A DNA stretch of 63,252 nucleotides, filler included, from Stramenopiles sp. TOSAG23-2 (taxonomy: Eukaryota): NCBI GenBank assembly GCA_900128395.1. It is 35 parts of 35 records of this genome, joined end to end, with 100 filler letters (N's around TTAATTAATTAA, not from the genome) between each part and the next. Parts side by side here need not be neighbours in the genome. Positions count along the whole stretch, not along the records: positions 57,958 to 59,656 come from LT652483.1; 34 more parts are not named here. One strand, given 5' to 3'. The position numbers were made by a program, and so were the translations under genes. The notes under the pieces were generated by a model, which saw only the letters and a program-made list of their open reading frames with translations, did not search any database and was not told where the DNA came from. Shown here in pieces: positions 2,710 to 59,823 of this stretch; positions within the stretch are counted from its first letter, which is position 1, and every line of letters starts with the position of its first letter.

Positions 2710-3395
2710 TTAATGATTATTACAGTATCAATGTGATATGCATCATTGCTTTTTTCAATTAGACAGTTGTTGCATCGCATTACACCTTTTGATTGAAACT
2801 ATAAATAGATTATTATATAGAAAGATGTGTCCAAATTTCTTTCTTAGGTCAAAAAATGCAAAAAGCAAAAACGTGAAGGTTAAGTTAAGGTAGGTTTAAA
2901 AAAGAAGAAGTAAGGAATGCCTATAGTGTATATACATATTTTGTGATTTTTTCAAGAACTATTATAACCTTACACAGTGGAAAATCTCATATTTTCGCGT
3001 GCAACAACTTTCCGAATAGGTTCACGTTCTATATTTGCAACATTTATAATGGCAGAGCATTGAAAAAATGTGCCGACTGATGCACACTGCACGCCGTCAA
3101 TCATCAATCATTATATTTTGCACTTTAACTTGCACGGTGTGCCGGTTGCACTTTGCACTTATGCAACTTATGTGAATATCAAGCACAATATACAGACTTT
3201 TTACAAACGAAATTTGATGAACTTGCTAAACTTGCCGTGCAGACCAGAATAAAATAAATGAAATATGCAATCGACAATATGTCTCTAGAGAGTCGTAGAC
3301 AACAACTTTTTTAATAAAAAACAATTGCGGGCGTCTCTATTTAATTGAATTAATATTTTATAATGCGTGCAAACAATAAAACTCTCCTTTTACAC

Positions 3396-3545
3396 TTAAC
3401 CAAACTCCTCCGTCCATTTATCGAACCGTTTCAACAATACTTCTTGATCGACACCACCATTCAAATCACCTTTCTTCATCTTATTATTATGCATACTACG
3501 ACTTTCTAATATTTTTTTCAAATGATAAAACGATAGATCTCCAAT
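3396..3545 (-). CDS. C-terminal fragment of a meiotic-clade AAA ATPase (VPS4/spastin/katanin/fidgetin-like)
   Basis: Manual translation IGDLSFYHLKKILE...VDQEVLLKRFDKWTEEFG*; a terminal F-x-x-W-x-x-E-F-G helix is characteristic of this clade. Confidence 0.6.
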   Translation of the reverse strand: MGDLSFYHLKKILESRSMHNNKMKKGDLNGGVDQEVLLKRFDKWTEEFG

Positions 3546-3646
3546 TNNNNNNNNNNNNNNNNNNNNNNNNNNNNNNNNNNNNNNNNNNNNTTAATTAATT
3601 AANNNNNNNNNNNNNNNNNNNNNNNNNNNNNNNNNNNNNNNNNNNN

Positions 3647-5326
3647 TTTCATCTTCCTTTGAAGTGCTTTTCTTTCCTCAAATGCTTCAATACGCGCTTT
3701 TGCAAGAGCTTCTTTATATGCATTTTCATTTTCTTGCATACTTTGTTTGGAGTTGAATTTTCGATTTAAATTATCCAAACTTCTTCTCCTCTGCAATCTA
3801 TTGTTTTGAATTTCCTTTGGACTCGCTTCATATGAATTCGTTCTGGTTACAATATTCCTCTGATGATTATAACTATTGTTCCCATCGAGACTCCTCCTAT
3901 TATTTTGATACCTATTACTATTATTATTGGTAGTAGTAGTAGTAGGAGGAGGAGGAGGAGGAGTAGTGTTGGTATTATCATTAAATTGATTTTTCACCGG
4001 GTTATTGAAACCTTGCATCTTTTTTTCCAATTCTTTTCTTTCTTTGAATGCTTGTTTTCTCGCTTCAGCTAACATTGCTTCGTGTTCTTTCTGTTTTTCA
4101 ATTTTTTCACTATTTCGGCGTTGTAGCATTCTTGCAGCTTTGTTTCCCCCATTATTGTTATCGTCGTTATTATTATGTCTTGGACTACTAAATGTAAAAT
4201 GTTGAGCTTGCCTGTGATTATTATTATCATTATATTTATTATCAGAAATTTTCCTACTATTATTTCTACGTTTAGATGAAGCAGCTGCAACTGCTAAAGT
4301 TTTTGGTGATAATGAGGATCTGATTTTTTTCGTCTTTCTTACATTATTACGAGTTTTAGTGTTATTACATATTTCACCTTCATTTTTCGCAGCAGTAGCA
4401 CCAATATTTTTGTTCTTATTGTTTCTTACCTTGACATTTTGATTGAAATTCGTCCGAATTTTCATAGCATTATTTGTACGATATTTTACTTGTTTTGCTC
4501 GTTGTTGTTGTTGTTGCAGTCGTTCTGGTTCAGGTTGTTGCGTTTTATTAGTAGGAGAACGTTTTACAGCCCATTTTTTGGGTTGAAATGCCGTTATTTT
4601 CTCTTTTTCTAGCGCCATACGAATGGATTCATCTGTAACCCCGAGCGTTGTTAATGATGGCGATCCAACTTGCATTACCTTCAATATATCATCGTCTGTT
4701 ATTACTGACGTATTATGATTATCCCCCTCCTCCTCGTTCTCAAGCTCTTCCTTACTATTGCTTGTCTTTGTATAATTATCAAAATTAGCACTTTGAATAT
4801 TTTGTGGTGGAGATGCATTTTTTTTTAAATAATTTGATTTATATACTTCATGTGAAAAACTTTGATCATGCCACTCATTACTATTCCTATTGTTGTTGCT
4901 TTTGGCATTTAATGAACCATTATCATTACTACTATTATTGCTGTTTGTAGTATTTGCATTCATTAATATTGCTAAATGTTTTTGAACTAAAGGTAATGCC
5001 AACATGTTATCAACTGTTGGTCTTTTAGATGGATCCTTATTCAACATTAAATTGATCAAATCAATTAATTCTTGATCAATACCACGTACTTCCAATAATT
5101 CGATATTAATAAACGACGAGGATTTGATTTGATCACATAAATATTGATACTTTTCATTATCAAATGGTTTTTTAAAAGTCAATAACTCATATATAATGCA
5201 ACCAACGGACCAAACATCAGCTTGTGAAGATAATGCTTTTAATTTGTATTTTTTTTGTGATGCATCATATAAAATCTCTCTGTTTCCGATATCAACACAA
5301 ACTTCCGGAGCTGCATAAAAAGGCAA
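3647..5326 (-). CDS. NIMA-related (NEK-like) Ser/Thr kinase, C-lobe plus long tail, partial at both ends
   Basis: APE, DVWSVGCIIYELLTFKKPF and MLNKDPSKRPT motifs; the tail has two copies of a NEK1-like LxxARxxAFxERKxL coiled-coil motif. Confidence 0.8.
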
Positions 5327-8030: not shown

Positions 8031-8426
8031 TTTATATATTATTATTAGTACAATATAAATAAATTCCATGTGTATTAGCAGGTGTTTAGGGTTAGGGAAA
8101 TTCGTACTTTGATTATATTTCTGTATACTTTATACAAATATCCTATCATTAAAAATTCTCCGCGCGATTTAGGGATAGCACGATAATTCCAAGGCACCAA
8201 GATTCATCATGGCCATTAAAAATAATATAGATTTGATGTATATACGACAAATATTATGTATAACCAATACATCAGAAAGTATATATATATAAATACAGTA
8301 CTCTCCATCTATCTATATCTATNNNNNNNNNNNNNNNNNNNNNNNNNNNNNNNNNNNNNNNNNNNNNNNNNNNNNNNNNNNNNNNNNNNNNNNNNNNNNN
8401 NNNNNNNNNNNNNNNNNNNNNNNNNN

Positions 8427-54475: not shown

Positions 54476-56057
54476 ATGTCATCGTCATCATCAACATCAT
54501 CTTCATCAACAACAAATCAAACAAGAAATTTAGTGACCTCAACAACGACGACGACAACAACAACAACCGTAAACATTAGTAATAATACTGGTGGAAATAC
54601 AATATCAACACCTGCACATTTCCTATGTCCAATTTCTGGTGATACTTTTAAAGATCCTGTTATTGCTTCTGATGGACAAACATATGAACGAGAATGTATT
54701 GCAAAATGGATTAGAACAAAAGGAAATAGCGCTTCGTCACCATTAACTGGTTTAAAGCTAAAAGATAACAAGTTGATCCCAAATCATAGTATGAAAAGTC
54801 AAATAGCAGAATGGCAACAAAAAAAAAAAAATGGCACGCATTTTGAAAAAGCAATTAAAGATTTAGTTGGTAATTTAATAATGGCGTCGACGAGTAAAGA
54901 ATTGATTGACACAATTGAAAAAATGTGTAATGTTATCCAATCAAGCAACAAAGTATTGATTACTGAAGATAAACTTAGTCAATGGATTCAAATTGTAAAT
55001 GCCAAGCTTTTAACAGATGAAGTTGTATCATCTTTTGATGTATTAAAATCTCAAGTACAAGTATCAACAAATAAGAAACAATTGGAACAAAAAACACTTA
55101 CGGAAATCCATAAATGCCAATCATTTATGATGGAGAAAAAACAAGAACAGTGTATGCAGATAAATATTGACTTTAAAAAAGCATCCAATAAATATGATAA
55201 ATCTAAAAAAGAGTTTGAAAGAGCAAAAGAGAAGATGAATAATGATGAGTTAGAATTCAATCGTGTTAAAAAAGCAAAAGATACCAATGCAAAACAAATT
55301 GAAATCTTAGCAGGTTTACTTGAAACATCCATTTCAGAAATGAATAATAATGGCATCGTCATTACTAATATTAATAATAATAGTAGTAGTAGTAACAATA
55401 GCAATGGAAAAAGGACAATATCAGATAGTAGTGGATCATCAAGGAAATCTAAACGGCAACGTAAAACTGATAATAATAATAATAATAGTAATTTCAATGA
55501 TGATATTGATTTATCGCTTGGTGCTCGTAAATTATTTGAAGATGGATTAAACCATGCAGGATTTGTAAGTGGCAAATGGTCCATACCATTAAAATATCAA
55601 ACTATGATTGAAGCAGCAGCACATGTTGGTTATGAGCTTGCAATAGGATATTGCTTTATACTTGGAGTTGGCACATTTGTCAAGAAGCGAAAAAGAGGAT
55701 ATGAAATAATTGAAAAATACAGTAAAACTAATAAAAATGATAGTTTGGCACAATATTTAATGGGTTATACATATCGTCATGGATATGGCATCACAAAGGA
55801 TTACAAAAAAGCATTGGAATGGTATACAAAATCAGCAGAACAAGGATATGCACCTAGTCAATATAATCTTGGCGTAATGTATCAAAATGGTGATGGTGTT
55901 ACAACGGATTACAAAAAAGCAGTTGAATGGTATACAAAAGCAGCAGAACAAGGACATGCACATGGTCAATATAAACTTGGTTCTATGTATGATAATGGTT
56001 ATGGTGTTACAAAAGATTACAAAAAAGCAGTTGAATGGTATACAAAATCAGCAGAAC
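54476..56057 (+). CDS. U-box E3 ligase with coiled coil and Sel1-like repeats, 3' partial
   Basis: PAHFLCPISGDTFKDPVIASDGQTYERECI...SPLTG...LIPNHSMKSQI; three AQYxLGxMYxxGxGVxKDYKKAxEWYTKxAEQG-type units. Confidence 0.92.
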
Positions 56058-56525: not shown

Positions 56526-57857
56526 TCATTTTTCTTCTTTTACGGTTACCTCAATTTGTCCTTCATCCTCATTTAAAATTTTGGTAAAATTTTTATACCA
56601 TGGATGTGATGGTACAATTGCATTAGGGCCTTCTTTTAATTTATTAAATGCATTAACAACCATTTCACGTCCAGATGGCTTGTTTTGTAGCATTAAGCAA
56701 TGTCCTAAATTGCCTCTTGTGTTTAATGTGAATTGGTCATTTGCTCCAAGTACTTCTTCTAGATCCGTTAATGCACGGAGATATATTTTTTCAGCTTCAT
56801 CTAATTTATTTCGTTTTACTAACCATGAAGCAAAATTATGTGCTGTTCTTAATGTATCTCGATGTTTTCGTCCAAGTTCTTCTTCTAGATCCCTTAACGA
56901 ATGGCGATACATTTTTTCAGCTTCATCTAATATATTTGGTTCTTTTAACAATGAAGCAAAACATTCTTTGAATGTATCGGCTATACATCTTGTTAATAGT
57001 ACTATTTGTTCAGTGTTAAAATGCTTATTTACAGTATCGTCTTGCTCAAAATACAAGATAGCTTCCTTTAATGCTTCCACCTGTAAATCCAACTGGCTCG
57101 TCGGTATTGTTTGCGACTGTTGCCACTCTTTCAGCCGTTCAATCACATAACGTGATTGTAAAGTATGAGGCATTTTGACATATTTTTCTTCACAATTATC
57201 AATCAAGAGTGATAGATTTACAAAAAATTGAATGTCGTCTTCCAAATCGTCAATATCCATGCCCCATAATATTTTCAATGTACGGTATGGAATTCGAATA
57301 TCTTGTGGAAATATACCCAACATAATATAACTATTACGTAGTTTTTCATCTTCAATAAAATCAATACTCATTGATAATGCATTAAATGCTGGTTTTAGAT
57401 ATTCAGCATCTTTAACTTGAAAAATTTTTTTTCTTGCAACTTTTGAATTTTCAATTGTATCTTTTTTTAACTCACGCAATATTTTTTGTAACATATTAGG
57501 TCTACTTTTAACGTGTCTTATTATAATTGAAAGAAAAAGTATAAGCCCGCCAAGCAAATTGATAATTTCCTTTAAATCATTTTCCTCCCAAGTAGAATGC
57601 CATTTGACATTATTTTTTTCAATTTGCTCTTTGAAAAATTTAATTGCATCTTCTTCTGTCAACATGTCTAAACTGATTTTATGTGCACCCTCTAGTACAT
57701 CTTCATTACGCGTAGAAATTACAATGCATGAATTAGGTGCACATGATTGTATTATGCCACGTAACGTAGTAATACATTCCTTTGACCAAAGATCATCAAA
57801 AATGATGAGGCAATTTAAGTGCAATTTACCATTTTTTAAATATTTTTTCAATATTTC
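56526..57857 (-). CDS. NB-ARC (APAF-1-like STAND NTPase) with winged helix and TPR repeats; NLR-like, 5' partial
   Basis: Walker B LIIFDDLW, RNBS-B IVISTR, GLPL-like GGLIL, LGIFPQDIRIP...LW, MHD-like HTLQ, and two 42-aa DEAEKxYxxxLxxxEExLG TPRs. Confidence 0.85.
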   Translation of the reverse strand, partial: EILKKYLKNGKLHLNCLIIFDDLWSKECITTLRGIIQSCAPNSCIVISTRNEDVLEGAHKISLDMLTEEDAIKFFKEQIEKNNVKWHSTWEENDLKEIINLLGGLILFLSIIIRHVKSRPNMLQKILRELKKDTIENSKVARKKIFQVKDAEYLKPAFNALSMSIDFIEDEKLRNSYIMLGIFPQDIRIPYRTLKILWGMDIDDLEDDIQFFVNLSLLIDNCEEKYVKMPHTLQSRYVIERLKEWQQSQTIPTSQLDLQVEALKEAILYFEQDDTVNKHFNTEQIVLLTRCIADTFKECFASLLKEPNILDEAEKMYRHSLRDLEEELGRKHRDTLRTAHNFASWLVKRNKLDEAEKIYLRALTDLEEVLGANDQFTLNTRGNLGHCLMLQNKPSGREMVVNAFNKLKEGPNAIVPSHPWYKNFTKILNEDEGQIEVTVKEEK

Positions 57858-57957
57858 NNNNNNNNNNNNNNNNNNNNNNNNNNNNNNNNNNNNNNNNNNN
57901 NTTAATTAATTAANNNNNNNNNNNNNNNNNNNNNNNNNNNNNNNNNNNNNNNNNNNN

Positions 57958-59289
57958 ATAATAATTTTTTCTTTCGTTGTTTTTTTTCATCTCGTATTCT
58001 TTTTTTCTCCAAAACAACATCGTTGTTGGGATGATATTGCATTTGGTTTAAATATGAATTTTTTAACACCATCTTCAAAGCGTAAAAGTAATAATAAACA
58101 AACAAAAAATAATATTCGTGGTGATGGTAAAAAATCAGGTGTAACATTAGCTACGCAATTAAGTGTTGATCGTTTACCATTATTATGTAAATCATCCGAG
58201 GCATGGAATGGACCTGTTTCTGCATCTGTATATGTACGATCTGGTTTAGATGTTGCTAAATTAGCTAAATGGAGACGAAAATGCAAATCAATTAAACAAT
58301 TTGTATCATTTCATCTTTTAACACAGCCAAATATTGCAAGATCAATACCGTATCCTGTGAATATATTACGAAATATTGCAATAGATGGTGTGGAAACAGA
58401 TTTTGTTTTTAATGTAGATGTTGATTTTGTACCAAATACAGATGCGGTGGAACATATTATGACATTAACAGAGGCATTACCACAAGCTATTGGTAAAGAA
58501 CAAAAATATATGTTGGTCATACCAGCATTCGAATTTGTTTCTGGTGCACAACAACGTGATGATTCAAGTTATGGAGATGGTAATAAAATAGAAGGTGCAA
58601 GTAAAGGCAATAGTAAGAAATATACATGTAATACAAATAAAAATACAATTATTTCCCATGGTGATACTCTTAGTAGAATTGCAAGATCATATGAAGTTAC
58701 CCTTCATGCAATACATCAATGCAATCCTCACATTGTTGATACAGAATTAGAAGTTGGTGATTCTATTAAAATTCCAGCTTTAGTTGAAAAAACGGATGGT
58801 GATGATTTTTTCACAAATTCAGAAGAGATGCCAAAAACAAAAAAAGATTTATTAGAATTAGTAGAATCGTATAAATTACAACCTGTACATGCGGATAAAT
58901 TTGCTGGTGCACATCAAATAACAAATTATAAAAAATGGTATACTCAAAGTAAACGAAAACCATATCAAGTAAAATTTAAAGGTGTATATGAGCCTTACAT
59001 GGTTGGTCCAAAAACAATGCCACGTTTTGATGAACGTTTTGCTGGTTATGGTATGGATAAAGTTGAATTGAATTATGAATTAAGTTTAGCTAATTATATG
59101 TTATTAGTTGCCCCAAATGCATTTGTTGTACATCATAACCACCCAAAAGCTACGTGGGGCTTGAAAGCTGATTTAGTACGTGTATATAAAAATTGGTATG
59201 GATTTGTCTATGATAAAGATAAATTGTATGGTCATGGGCAATTTTATGAAGGTGAAAAAGTTGAAAATAGAGCAATTTTGATATCATAA
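57958..59289 (+). CDS. GT49 (LARGE/B4GAT1-like) glycosyltransferase with an internal LysM domain; 5' partial
   Basis: VTLATQLSVDRL, WNGPVSASVY, YPVNILRNIA, DVDFVP (DxD), VIPAFE, PKTKKDL, YEPY, FDERFAGYGMDK; LysM GDTLSRIA...NP...LEVGDSIKIP at about 58645-58776. Confidence 0.9.
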   Translation: MIIFSFVVFFHLVFFFSPKQHRCWDDIAFGLNMNFLTPSSKRKSNNKQTKNNIRGDGKKSGVTLATQLSVDRLPLLCKSSEAWNGPVSASVYVRSGLDVAKLAKWRRKCKSIKQFVSFHLLTQPNIARSIPYPVNILRNIAIDGVETDFVFNVDVDFVPNTDAVEHIMTLTEALPQAIGKEQKYMLVIPAFEFVSGAQQRDDSSYGDGNKIEGASKGNSKKYTCNTNKNTIISHGDTLSRIARSYEVTLHAIHQCNPHIVDTELEVGDSIKIPALVEKTDGDDFFTNSEEMPKTKKDLLELVESYKLQPVHADKFAGAHQITNYKKWYTQSKRKPYQVKFKGVYEPYMVGPKTMPRFDERFAGYGMDKVELNYELSLANYMLLVAPNAFVVHHNHPKATWGLKADLVRVYKNWYGFVYDKDKLYGHGQFYEGEKVENRAILIS

Positions 59290-59823
59290 AATATTATATT
59301 AGAAAATAAAATATGAACGAAAAAAAGGAATATGTTATGTATATGATGCGCGCGTGTGATGAAACGAACGATATTGAATGATTTTAAAACTATAGCAGTT
59401 TTTAGTGTGCAAGGAGATTATAGTTGTTTTTGGTGTTAAAAAACATTTTTTACATTATTAAAATATTATTATTTTTTTTCATTTTTTCTCGTCGTTGTTG
59501 TTCAAGTTAAAGTTTTGCCTTCTTCTTTTTTCTATTCTTCTGTACCAGGTGTACATAATCTAGGTCCTAGACTTTTCAAAGAAAAGTCTAGTTGGAGACG
59601 TAGATTTAGTGCTGTGTGGCTTCTATTTTGAGTAAAAATCAGGGGTTTTTAAGGTTNNNNNNNNNNNNNNNNNNNNNNNNNNNNNNNNNNNNNNNNNNNN
59701 TTAATTAATTAANNNNNNNNNNNNNNNNNNNNNNNNNNNNNNNNNNNNNNNNNNNNGATATGTAGAGGAAACAACCAACAGAACAACAAAATAAAACGAA
59801 GTACAAAATACAACAAAAACATC

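What the first reader, a model, noticed from the sequence alone, without database searches (positions are those of the whole stretch)
57958..59289. LysM domain inserted inside a LARGE-type GT49 catalytic domain
Seen: GT49 motifs VIPAFE and PKTKKDL are separated here by about 100 aa that include a complete LysM (IISHGDTLSRIARSYEVTLHAIHQCNPHIVDTELEVGDSIKIP) flanked by polar linkers, all in one frame on one contig. Known: these motifs lie only a few residues apart in animal LARGE, and LysM binds GlcNAc polymers (chitin, peptidoglycan). I know of no described GT49 with an internal LysM. Inference: a glycosyltransferase tethered to a GlcNAc-rich acceptor, used either for surface-glycan building or for modifying prey-derived glycans. 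This is the best candidate for new biology in the window.
Basis: partly seen in the sequence, partly recalled or inferred. Interest (0 to 1): 0.8.

Follow-up and report, generated by a model that had tools for sequence, protein, structure and literature searches.

The report
LysM inside a LARGE-like glycosyltransferase
A marine protist gene encodes a LARGE-type sugar-transferring enzyme with a LysM sugar-binding module set into the middle of its catalytic domain; the arrangement is real, conserved and apparently undescribed, but what it does is only inferred.

Summary
The ORF at 58054-59289 (+) gives a split Pfam GT49 hit (2.2e-50) around a LysM hit above the curated cut-off (6.8e-9). In human LARGE1, PAFE and PKSK lie 6 residues apart. 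Here they lie 97-99 apart.

The insert is not an artefact. Two independent metagenome contigs carry the uninterrupted gene. Contigs from RNA libraries of two studies bridge both junctions, with no joints.

The window copy is incomplete. Its first 50 bases belong to a neighbouring gene. The whole protein is 684-685 aa: an N-terminal hydrophobic segment, a CBM16/CBM4-like beta-sandwich, then GT49 with the LysM.

Five orthologue clusters and one Cafeteria protein share the insert at the same site. That is 2 of 135 GT49-bearing representatives among the best 150 of 7503 hits.

The LysM core is conserved like the catalytic lobes, and its linkers are not. All GT49 invariant residues are kept.

My reading is an active secretory-pathway GT49 held on a GlcNAc-containing acceptor by its own LysM. 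This is inferred, not shown. I class it as a new variant of known kinds, of moderate interest.

The parts
57958..58007 (-). Foreign 5' end of the contig (chimeric join or deletion). Its reverse complement encodes LEKKRIRDEKKQRKKKLL, the C-terminal part of the neighbouring pseudouridine-synthase-like gene. It is not part of the glycosyltransferase gene.
   Evidence: The minus-strand ORF matches L002 ORF 1314-2417(-) (Pfam PseudoU_synth_2 2.5e-16). The alignment shows the window diverging from L001 and L002 upstream of 58008. In one search, records 10 and 18 cover 57958-58012 on the other strand and then run on unlike the window.
58008..59289 (+). Authentic 3' part of the gene, equal to residues 258-684 of the 684-aa orthologue P0002, including the stop at 59287-59289. 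The mechanical ORF starts at an internal ATG at 58054 (P0001, 411 aa).
   Evidence: (99% identity to P0002). A 1612-nt contig of run X2 covers 58008-59416 colinearly (record 11).
58132..58542 (+). GT49 N-terminal lobe (aa 27-163), with the DxD motif D122-V-D124 at 58417-58425 and the IPAFEF strand at 58519-58536.
   Evidence: Local HMM hit at 27-163. Aligns to LARGE1 339-466 including DIDFLP. D122, D124, P157 and F159 are invariant in 12 aligned GT49 proteins.
58537..58644 (+). Linker 1 of the insert (aa 162-197). It is polar and poorly conserved. It holds Cys192 (YTC), which is invariant in the five-cluster family.
   Evidence: pLDDT <50 at 164-187. Mean pairwise identity is 51% against 74-80% in the lobes. 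C465 of P0002 is invariant.
58645..58776 (+). LysM domain (aa 198-241; Pfam match 203-241 = 58660-58776), with GDTL, the conserved Asn (QCNP) and the GDSIKIP end.
   Evidence: Pfam PF01476 at 6.8e-9. PDB phmmer finds Ecp6 at 1.5e-7. The model shows beta-alpha-alpha-beta. Mean identity is 70% with 24 of 48 invariant columns. RNA-library contigs cover it: X15 records 2 and 3, X18 record 5.
58777..58827 (+). Linker 2 of the insert (aa 242-258).
   Evidence: pLDDT <50 at 246-256. Mean identity is 42%.
58828..59244 (+). GT49 C-terminal lobe (aa 259-397), starting at MPKTKKD and including HHNHP at 59131-59145.
   Evidence: Local HMM hit at 259-397. Aligns to LARGE1 473-576. The best Pfam GT49 stretch is 255-361.
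59290..59555 (+). 3' untranslated or intergenic sequence, colinear with the two reference loci.
   Evidence: Alignment.
59556..59656 (.). Contig end that does not match L001 or L002. It has very high summed depth in one metagenome, so it may be a repeat or a second chimeric end.
   Evidence: In one search table 2, depth is 167.5 in X4 at 59554-59610.

Best explanation
This is the 3' two-thirds of a gene from an AT-rich marine protist. The organism is probably a heterotrophic stramenopile, because the only named carrier of the same architecture is Cafeteria.

The full protein enters the secretory pathway through one N-terminal hydrophobic segment. It then has a CBM16/CBM4-like beta-sandwich, an acidic linker, and a GT49 GT-A catalytic domain of the LARGE/B4GAT1 type. 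A single LysM on two flexible linkers sits in the loop right after the invariant PAFE strand.

Shown: the architecture, its conservation, its presence in independent DNA and RNA-library assemblies, and the retention of every residue that is invariant in the 12 aligned GT49 proteins, including the DxD pair.

Inferred: the enzyme is active and uses a UDP-sugar (UDP-GlcA in all characterised GT49 enzymes) in the ER or Golgi lumen. The LysM, helped by the N-terminal module, holds the enzyme on a GlcNAc-containing acceptor such as a chitin-like chain, a GlcNAc-rich coat glycan or the chitobiose core of N-glycans. That would raise local acceptor concentration or processivity, much as the lectin domain does for polypeptide GalNAc-transferases.
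For: - **Domains:** Pfam gives a split GT49 hit plus LysM above the cut-off in the window protein, in 5 of 5 orthologue representatives and in P0077 (4.2e-13).
- **Insert site:** The gap is 6 residues in LARGE1 against 97 in P0002. The median gap is 8 in 172 lobe pairs.
- **Fold:** LARGE1 is the top Foldseek match (4.4e-23), followed by the K4CP chondroitin polymerase.
- **Catalytic residues:** D122/D124 align to LARGE1 D563/D565. Mutating those residues removes glucuronate transfer (PMC12514197, passages). All 26 columns invariant across the 12 aligned GT49 proteins, the window protein among them, are kept, including the DxD pair.
- **Selection pattern:** Mean identity is 70% for LysM, 74-80% for the lobes and 42-51% for the linkers.
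- **LysM motifs:** GDTL and the Asn are invariant. The Asn is described as strongly conserved in LysMs (PMC4392113, passages).
- **Second module:** The N-terminal domain model (pLDDT 79) matches CBM16, CBM4, CBM22, CBM61 and a hyaluronan-binding module (6e-9, TM 0.71-0.77).
- **Secretory entry:** There is one N-terminal hydrophobic segment of 11-19 aa and no later TM-like window in the 5 proteins printed.
- **Reality of the gene:** L001 and L002 hold the intact intronless gene. 20 of 24 listed runs from 13 studies hold the sequence or part of it. RNA-library contigs bridge both junctions, and there are no joints.
Against: - No binding or transfer assay exists, so donor, acceptor and location are all inferred.
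- I could not read model coordinates, so the distance from the LysM groove to the DxD site is unknown.
- The LysM part of the model is only moderately confident (pLDDT 73-77), and the 12-row alignment behind it is shallow.
- The N-terminal module has no Pfam carbohydrate-binding hit.
- The runs laid were assembled contigs, not raw reads. By the tool's own caveat they show presence in RNA libraries, not proven transcription.
- The architecture is confined to a narrow set: 2 of 135 GT49-bearing representatives.
- A chitin-like acceptor in these flagellates is not documented by any search here.
Confidence: 0.55

Rival explanations
1. The protein recognises prey. It is displayed on the cell surface or delivered to the food vacuole of a bacterivore, where the LysM (and the CBM-like module) binds bacterial peptidoglycan or prey chitin. 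The GT49 domain would then act as a lectin-like binder or would modify prey glycans.
For: - The one named carrier is Cafeteria, described as an abundant marine bacterivore in the abstract and passages of bioRxiv 10.64898/2026.10.13.758971.
- Sequences similar to the LysM segment include peptidoglycan-binding LysMs of bacterial cell-wall enzymes.
- The protein has a secretory entry signal and no later TM segment.
Against: - All catalytic invariants, including DxD, are under conservation as strong as or stronger than the LysM. That fits an enzyme, not a lectin.
- Nucleotide sugars are not expected in phagosomes or seawater (general knowledge).
- The CBM-like plus GT49 parent architecture occurs without LysM in organisms named in the records, including an amoeba and an annelid. 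The scaffold is therefore an ordinary biosynthetic enzyme.
Confidence: 0.15
2. The LysM no longer serves acceptor capture. It acts as a structural, regulatory or retention module, for example a lid over the active site, an oligomerisation contact, or a binder of resident N-glycans that keeps a soluble enzyme in the Golgi.
For: - LARGE1 works as a dimer (PMC9746966 and PMC12514197, passages and section 7).
- The five-cluster family has two invariant Cys flanking or inside the LysM that Cafeteria lacks, so the module is evolving lineage-specific features.
- 4 of 5 orthologue representatives have no N-glycosylation sequon at all. This could relate to self-binding.
Against: - The canonical ligand-side motifs (GDTL, Asn) are invariant.
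- Long disordered linkers suit a tethered binding module better than a rigid lid.
- In the one studied case of an inserted LysM (MoCVNH-LysM), the domains behave as independent units that keep their own binding (PMC4392113, passage).
Confidence: 0.2
3. The insert is an artefact: an assembly chimera, an unspliced intron or a gene-model error.
For: - Both ends of this very contig are chimeric or divergent.
- The window is built of short contigs.
Against: - The same uninterrupted reading frame is in two independent metagenome contigs, one with neighbours on both sides.
- It is also in a 1612-nt contig of another run and in RNA-library contigs of two studies that bridge both junctions, with no joints.
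- It is present in five orthologue clusters of 38, 2, 22, 8 and 10 members and in a Cafeteria transcriptome protein.
- The segment scores as a folded LysM and is conserved at the protein level.
Confidence: 0.02

Closest known systems
LARGE1/LARGE2 glucuronyltransferase domain and B4GAT1 (CAZy GT49)
   Same: It gives a Pfam PF13896 hit. It has a GT-A fold with LARGE1 as the best structural match. DxD aligns to D563/D565. The PAFE, PKxK, YEPY, DERF-GYG and HxxH blocks are shared.
   Different: It has no GT8 xylosyltransferase domain. It carries an N-terminal CBM-like module instead. A 97-aa insert with a LysM replaces a 6-residue loop. Donor and acceptor are unknown, and sequence identity is only about 21-22% in the structural alignment.
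CBM-like + GT49 proteins without LysM (e.g. Balamuthia 'Glycosyltransferase-like 1B', Ancoracysta, Palpitomonas, Endostelium, Dermamoeba, Ridgeia records)
   Same: They share the N-terminal beta-sandwich followed by GT49. This is the likely parent architecture.
   Different: 8 of the 10 representatives with this N-terminal domain have no LysM.
Polypeptide GalNAc-transferases (GT27) with a ricin-type lectin domain
   Same: They share the working principle proposed here: a GT-A enzyme carrying its own glycan-binding module that steers it to acceptors (recalled knowledge). GalNAc-T2 structures appear among the weaker fold matches.
   Different: Their lectin domain is C-terminal, not inside the catalytic domain. 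The CBM family and the GT family both differ. This is an analogy only.
MoCVNH-LysM of Magnaporthe oryzae
   Same: It is a precedent for LysM as an inserted domain inside another domain, with both parts folding and binding independently (PMC4392113, passage).
   Different: The host domain is a lectin, not an enzyme, and the lineage is fungal.
Chitin-binding LysM proteins (Ecp6; Thermus NlpC/P60 LysM)
   Same: They are the closest solved LysM sequences, at 1.5e-7 and 2.8e-6.
   Different: In those proteins the LysMs are free-standing or terminal and often in tandem. Here a single copy is nested in a glycosyltransferase.

Membership tests
CAZy GT49 / Pfam Glyco_transf_49 | Profile match above the curated threshold | tested here: met
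   PF13896 at E 2.2e-50, 172 bits against a cut-off of 27
CAZy GT49 / Pfam Glyco_transf_49 | GT-A fold closest to the LARGE1 GlcA-T domain | tested here: met
   Foldseek finds 7zvj_A at 4.4e-23, TM 0.57 over the query. The lobes are mostly pLDDT 80-92.
CAZy GT49 / Pfam Glyco_transf_49 | DxD motif equivalent to LARGE1 D563-x-D565 | tested here: met
   D122-V-D124 aligns with DID of LARGE1 and is invariant in 12 sequences
CAZy GT49 / Pfam Glyco_transf_49 | Inverting transfer of GlcA from UDP-GlcA | not testable with these tools
   This needs an enzyme assay. It is inferred only from the characterised members.
LysM (Pfam PF01476, CBM50) | Profile match above the curated threshold | tested here: met
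   E 6.8e-9, 36 bits against 20.9. 5 of 5 orthologues and P0077 also pass.
LysM (Pfam PF01476, CBM50) | Beta-alpha-alpha-beta fold | tested here: met
   DSSP on the model gives E197-199, H206-212, H217-223, E237-239 at pLDDT 73-77. No separate structural search of the LysM alone was run.
LysM (Pfam PF01476, CBM50) | Conserved GDTL turn and Asn | tested here: met
   G476, D477, T478, L479 and N497 of P0002 are invariant. The importance of the Asn is from PMC4392113; the role of GDTL is recalled.
LysM (Pfam PF01476, CBM50) | Binding of GlcNAc-containing glycans | not testable with these tools
   This needs a binding assay.
CBM4/CBM16/CBM22-type beta-sandwich module (N-terminal domain; outside the window) | Jelly-roll fold like solved CBMs | tested here: met
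   Foldseek finds 2zex_B at 6.0e-9, and 3oea_A at target TM 0.76. The model has pLDDT 79.
CBM4/CBM16/CBM22-type beta-sandwich module (N-terminal domain; outside the window) | Sequence-profile membership of a CBM family | tested here: not met
   There is no CBM family in Pfam at E<=0.1. It is filed as CBM-like by fold only.

The most novel reading that the evidence does not exclude
Marine bacterivorous stramenopiles evolved a glycosyltransferase with a built-in LysM that does one of two things. Either it builds a so far unknown acidic polymer by adding glucuronic acid (or another sugar) to chitin-like GlcNAc chains. Or, exposed on the surface or in the food vacuole, it uses its LysM and CBM-like modules to seize prey peptidoglycan. 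The second case would make it a glycosyltransferase recruited as a prey receptor.
Probability: 0.15. Interest if true: 0.75.

Novelty: new variant of a known kind. Interest (0 to 1): 0.48.

Why it matters
Carbohydrate-binding modules are routine on glycan-degrading enzymes but rare on glycan-building ones. A LysM nested inside a GT-A catalytic domain appears not to have been described: searches returned one irrelevant paper and none, and none of the listed papers looked relevant from its title and abstract.

The gene is held in marine metagenome and RNA-library data of 13 studies, and it has a relative in the culturable Cafeteria. That gives a tractable way to ask what GlcNAc-containing glycans tiny ocean predators make or handle. 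It also offers a natural test of whether a tethered lectin domain changes the acceptor choice or processivity of a LARGE-type enzyme.

Tried and rejected
- **Own genome:** None is held for this window (error), so paralogues could not be counted.
- **Earlier scan notes:** Three look-ups returned nothing.
- **Lineage:** A search with the window's PPIL4-like protein found named relatives at only 39-46% identity over most of the query, from unrelated groups. The lineage stays unresolved by that route.
- **ESM Atlas:** The nearest clusters are plain GT49 at scores 0.87-0.88, below the level the tool calls more than a lead.
- **My first LysM HMM:** I built it from the six family sequences. It was too narrow and missed P0077. 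Pfam and a broader HMM built from 159 LysM segments corrected this.
- **Long gaps in other GT49 proteins:** The gaps in P0181, P0171 and P0154 are low-complexity Asn-rich stretches, and those in P0138, P0097 and P0124 come from tandem domains. P0196 also has a long gap. None has a LysM.
- **Word-index search with P0077:** It found no further LysM-GT49.
- **Viral contigs:** No relative was found. With Mpv17 and pseudouridine-synthase neighbours, a giant-virus origin is unlikely.
- **Single origin of the insert:** The six LysM rows fall on one side of a branch in the best tree, but with SH-aLRT of only 61. This is neither shown nor rejected.
- **Parts of the stretch without cover in run X4** are not evidence of anything.
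- **Script:** It stopped with an error after printing 5 of 9 proteins. I did not rerun it for the remaining four.
Full report
**What the window is.** The 63,252-base window is not one molecule. It is 35 contigs of about 1.7-1.8 kb, in order of falling length, joined by spacers of 44 N, TTAATTAATTAA and 44 N. The finding lies on the contig 57958-59656. GC content is about 24-34% throughout, and the ORFs are rich in Asn, Ser and Thr runs.

**The observation.** The longest frame is 58054-59289 (+), 411 aa (P0001).
- Pfam gives Glyco_transf_49 at 2.2e-50 in three stretches. It gives LysM at 6.8e-9 (36 bits, cut-off 20.9) at residues 203-241.
- VIPAFE is at residues 155-160 and PKTKKDL at 260-266.
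- A phmmer search of the full-length orthologue against PDB sequences aligns it to human LARGE1 in two blocks. In LARGE1 the first block ends at PAFE (chain residue 466) and the second starts at FPKSK (473). In the orthologue the same blocks end at 434 and start at 532. The loop is therefore 6 residues in LARGE1 and 97 here.
- The 60-aa LysM segment alone finds 14 distinct PDB sequences at E<=1. Chitin-binding Ecp6 leads at 1.5e-7, followed by the Thermus NlpC/P60 LysM at 2.8e-6.
- An AlphaFold model (12-row alignment, mean pLDDT 69.7) has well-predicted catalytic lobes. It shows a beta-alpha-alpha-beta unit at 197-239 (pLDDT 73-77) between two stretches below pLDDT 50, at 164-187 and 246-256.
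- Foldseek puts LARGE1 first (7zvj_A, 4.4e-23). The GlcA-transferring chondroitin polymerase K4CP is next (2.8e-7).

**Corrections to the coordinates.** The frame is open back to 57958, but the first 17 codons do not belong to the gene.
- The 99%-identical orthologue P0002 is 684 aa, and similarity starts only at PKQHRCWDD.
- Two metagenome contigs hold the whole gene. L002 (5812 nt) has an uninterrupted 685-codon frame at 2810-4867. L001 (3045 nt) covers residues 6-683 at 100% identity.
- Aligned to them, the window departs upstream of 58008.
- The reverse complement of 57958-58007 encodes LEKKRIRDEKKQRKKKLL. This is the C-terminal part of the gene lying upstream on the other strand in L002, which is a pseudouridine-synthase-like gene (Pfam 2.5e-16).
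- Contigs of other runs that reach 58008 continue upstream with letters that read DGIQFHPPNC, as in P0002 (table 7).

The contig therefore has a chimeric or deleted 5' end, and the window holds only residues 258-684 of the protein. From about 59556 the 3' end also differs from both loci.

**Is the insert real and expressed?**
- 20 of 24 listed public runs, from 13 studies, hold the stretch or part of it. 16 hold half or more of its words, and 6 are RNA libraries. By their records, those whose label was shown are marine or seawater samples.
- I laid four runs, all as assembled contigs. A 1612-nt contig of X2 covers 58008-59416 without a break.
- In oligo-dT library X15, one contig covers 58325-58698, running from the N lobe through PAFE into the LysM. 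Another covers 58727-59379, running from the LysM through PKTKK and the C lobe.
- In polyA library X18, contigs cover 58008-58501 and 58636-58950.
- No joints were reported.
- The tool warns that contigs show presence in an RNA library, not proven transcription.

The gene is intronless in L002, so nothing could be spliced out there.

**Who has it?**
- The word-index search found 29 proteins at E<=0.001 among 2080 candidates. Five of them (99, 84, 79, 64 and 66% identical) carry both Pfam families. The other 24 carry GT49 without LysM.
- Those five stand for clusters of 38, 2, 22, 8 and 10 members. None of the members listed (up to 15 per cluster) has an NCBI or UniRef source, and the only source name is the automatic 'LysM repeat protein'.
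- A profile of the family searched against 1.84 billion representatives gave 7503 hits at E<=0.001. The best 150 are listed.
- By local HMMs, 135 of these 150 have a GT49 lobe, 14 are LysM-only repeat proteins and 1 is an N-terminal fragment.
- My first LysM HMM found only the family's own representative. Pfam on the ten proteins with long gaps or the N-terminal domain then showed a LysM (4.2e-13) at the same site in P0077. A broader HMM built from 159 LysM segments confirmed P0077 and found no other.
- So 2 of 135 GT49-bearing representatives have the insert. Hits ranked below 150 were not examined.
- P0077 is a transcriptome protein whose record names taxid 33652, the genus Cafeteria, a bicosoecid stramenopile.
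- A word-index search with P0077 found no further example. A scan of viral contigs found none.

**Parent architecture and origin.**
- The full-length proteins have a conserved domain of about 175 aa ahead of GT49. Its model (pLDDT 79.1) matches family 16, 4, 22 and 61 carbohydrate-binding modules and a hyaluronan-binding module (best 6.0e-9, target TM 0.71-0.77). Pfam gives no CBM hit, so I call it CBM-like by fold only.
- Ten representatives have this domain plus GT49. Eight of them lack LysM. Six of those eight have records that name Ancoracysta, Balamuthia, Dermamoeba, Endostelium, Palpitomonas and Ridgeia.
- I built a tree of the catalytic lobes only, with the insert left out. It has 59 rows: 6 with LysM, 8 with the N-terminal domain only, and the first 45 of 95 eligible other GT49 proteins. 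The remaining 50 were left out, as were tandem or long-gap proteins.
- The tree puts the six LysM rows on one side of a branch with SH-aLRT 61. The five-cluster family is supported at 99.
- One insertion into a CBM-like-GT49 ancestor within heterotrophic stramenopiles is the simplest reading. It is not demonstrated.

**Signs of function.**
- Among the five orthologues, mean pairwise identity is 74% (N lobe), 80% (C lobe), 70% (LysM) and 67% (CBM-like), but 51% and 42% in the two linkers. That is the pattern of a folded, selected module on flexible tethers.
- All 26 columns invariant in a 12-sequence GT49 alignment that includes the window protein are kept, including D122 and D124. These align with LARGE1 D563 and D565. 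The LARGE1 residues are the DXD motif of the GT49 domain (PMC9746966, passages), and mutating them abolishes glucuronate transfer (PMC12514197, passages).
- GDTL and the Asn of QCNP are invariant in the LysM. The Asn is described as strongly conserved across LysMs (PMC4392113, passages).
- Two Cys residues (YTC before the LysM and QC inside it) are invariant in the five-cluster family and absent in Cafeteria. They may form a disulfide, which would fit a lumenal or extracellular protein. This is inference.
- Each of the five full-length proteins printed has one N-terminal hydrophobic segment of 11-19 residues and no later TM-like window (the script stopped before the other four). Whether this is a cleaved signal or a type II anchor is open.

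**How it most likely works.** I read this as an active, secretory-pathway GT49 whose LysM, and probably also its N-terminal module, holds it on a GlcNAc-containing acceptor.
- The insert leaves the fold directly after the invariant PAFE strand. By general GT-A topology (recalled), that strand should end on the substrate face. I could not check this without coordinates.
- The principle matches the lectin domain of polypeptide GalNAc-transferases (recalled).
- LysM as a nested, independently acting domain has a precedent in MoCVNH-LysM (PMC4392113, passage).
- The donor is guessed to be UDP-GlcA, because all characterised GT49 enzymes use it.
- Candidate acceptors are chitin-like chains, coat glycans and N-glycan cores. 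None is shown.
A lectin-like prey-binding role cannot be excluded.

**Novelty.**
- Full-text searches for LysM with GT49, and for LysM with Glyco_transf_49, returned one irrelevant paper and none.
- From the listed titles and abstracts, broader searches gave nothing relevant.
- A review of LysM architectures in fungi does not contain the word glycosyltransferase.
- One brown-alga paper merely lists GT49 as present.
- A Cafeteria subcellular proteomics preprint exists, but its text mentions neither LysM nor glycosyltransferase, and its tables are in supplements that I could not see.

I rate this a new variant of known kinds: a known enzyme family and a known binding module in a new, nested arrangement. 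It is restricted to a narrow protist clade, and its function is inferred.

Noticed in passing
whole window; spacers e.g. 57858-57957 and 59657-59756: The window is 35 short contigs of about 1.7-1.8 kb, sorted by falling length and joined by N44-TTAATTAATTAA-N44 spacers. Two further N runs (8323-8426, 15396-15449) lie inside contigs. Neighbouring 'genes' in the window are therefore not neighbours in the genome.
   Followed up: yes
57958-58007 and 59556-59656: Both ends of this contig differ from two independent loci. The 5' end is a piece of the upstream neighbour gene in the opposite orientation, about 2 kb away in L002. The 3' end matches nothing in L001 or L002 and has very high summed depth in one metagenome (167.5). 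Other contigs of this assembly may have similar chimeric ends.
   Followed up: partly
L002 2810-4867 and orthologues P0002, P0004, P0068, P0061: N-glycosylation sequons (N-x-S/T) are absent from 4 of 5 orthologue representatives despite many Asn. P0002 has 0 observed against 5.8 expected from shuffles (P about 0.001). The Cafeteria protein and the four other relatives tested (P0079, P0080, P0081, P0131) are not depleted. The orthologues are related, so these are not independent tests.
   Followed up: partly
L002 1314-2417 (-) and 5264-5812 (+): The genomic neighbours of the gene are a pseudouridine synthase with an S4 domain (head to head, about 390 bp away) and an Mpv17/PMP22-family membrane protein downstream. 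All three have uninterrupted frames in this locus, which suggests a compact, intron-poor genome.
   Followed up: partly
cluster of P0004: In one related species the protein appears as several short pieces (59-579 aa) on long contigs of 30-108 kb, and once as a 1713-aa gene model. The gene may have introns there, or the models may be split or fused. I did not examine this.
   Followed up: no
P0181, P0171, P0154: Some GT49 proteins with very Asn-rich composition carry long low-complexity inserts between the DxD region and the PAFE-equivalent strand. This part of the fold therefore tolerates insertions in more than one lineage.
   Followed up: partly
54476-56057 (+) and 56526-57851 (-): The adjacent contigs encode a U-box plus Sel1-repeat protein and a protein that reads like an NB-ARC/TPR type. 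These are my readings of the translations, not checked against any library.
   Followed up: no
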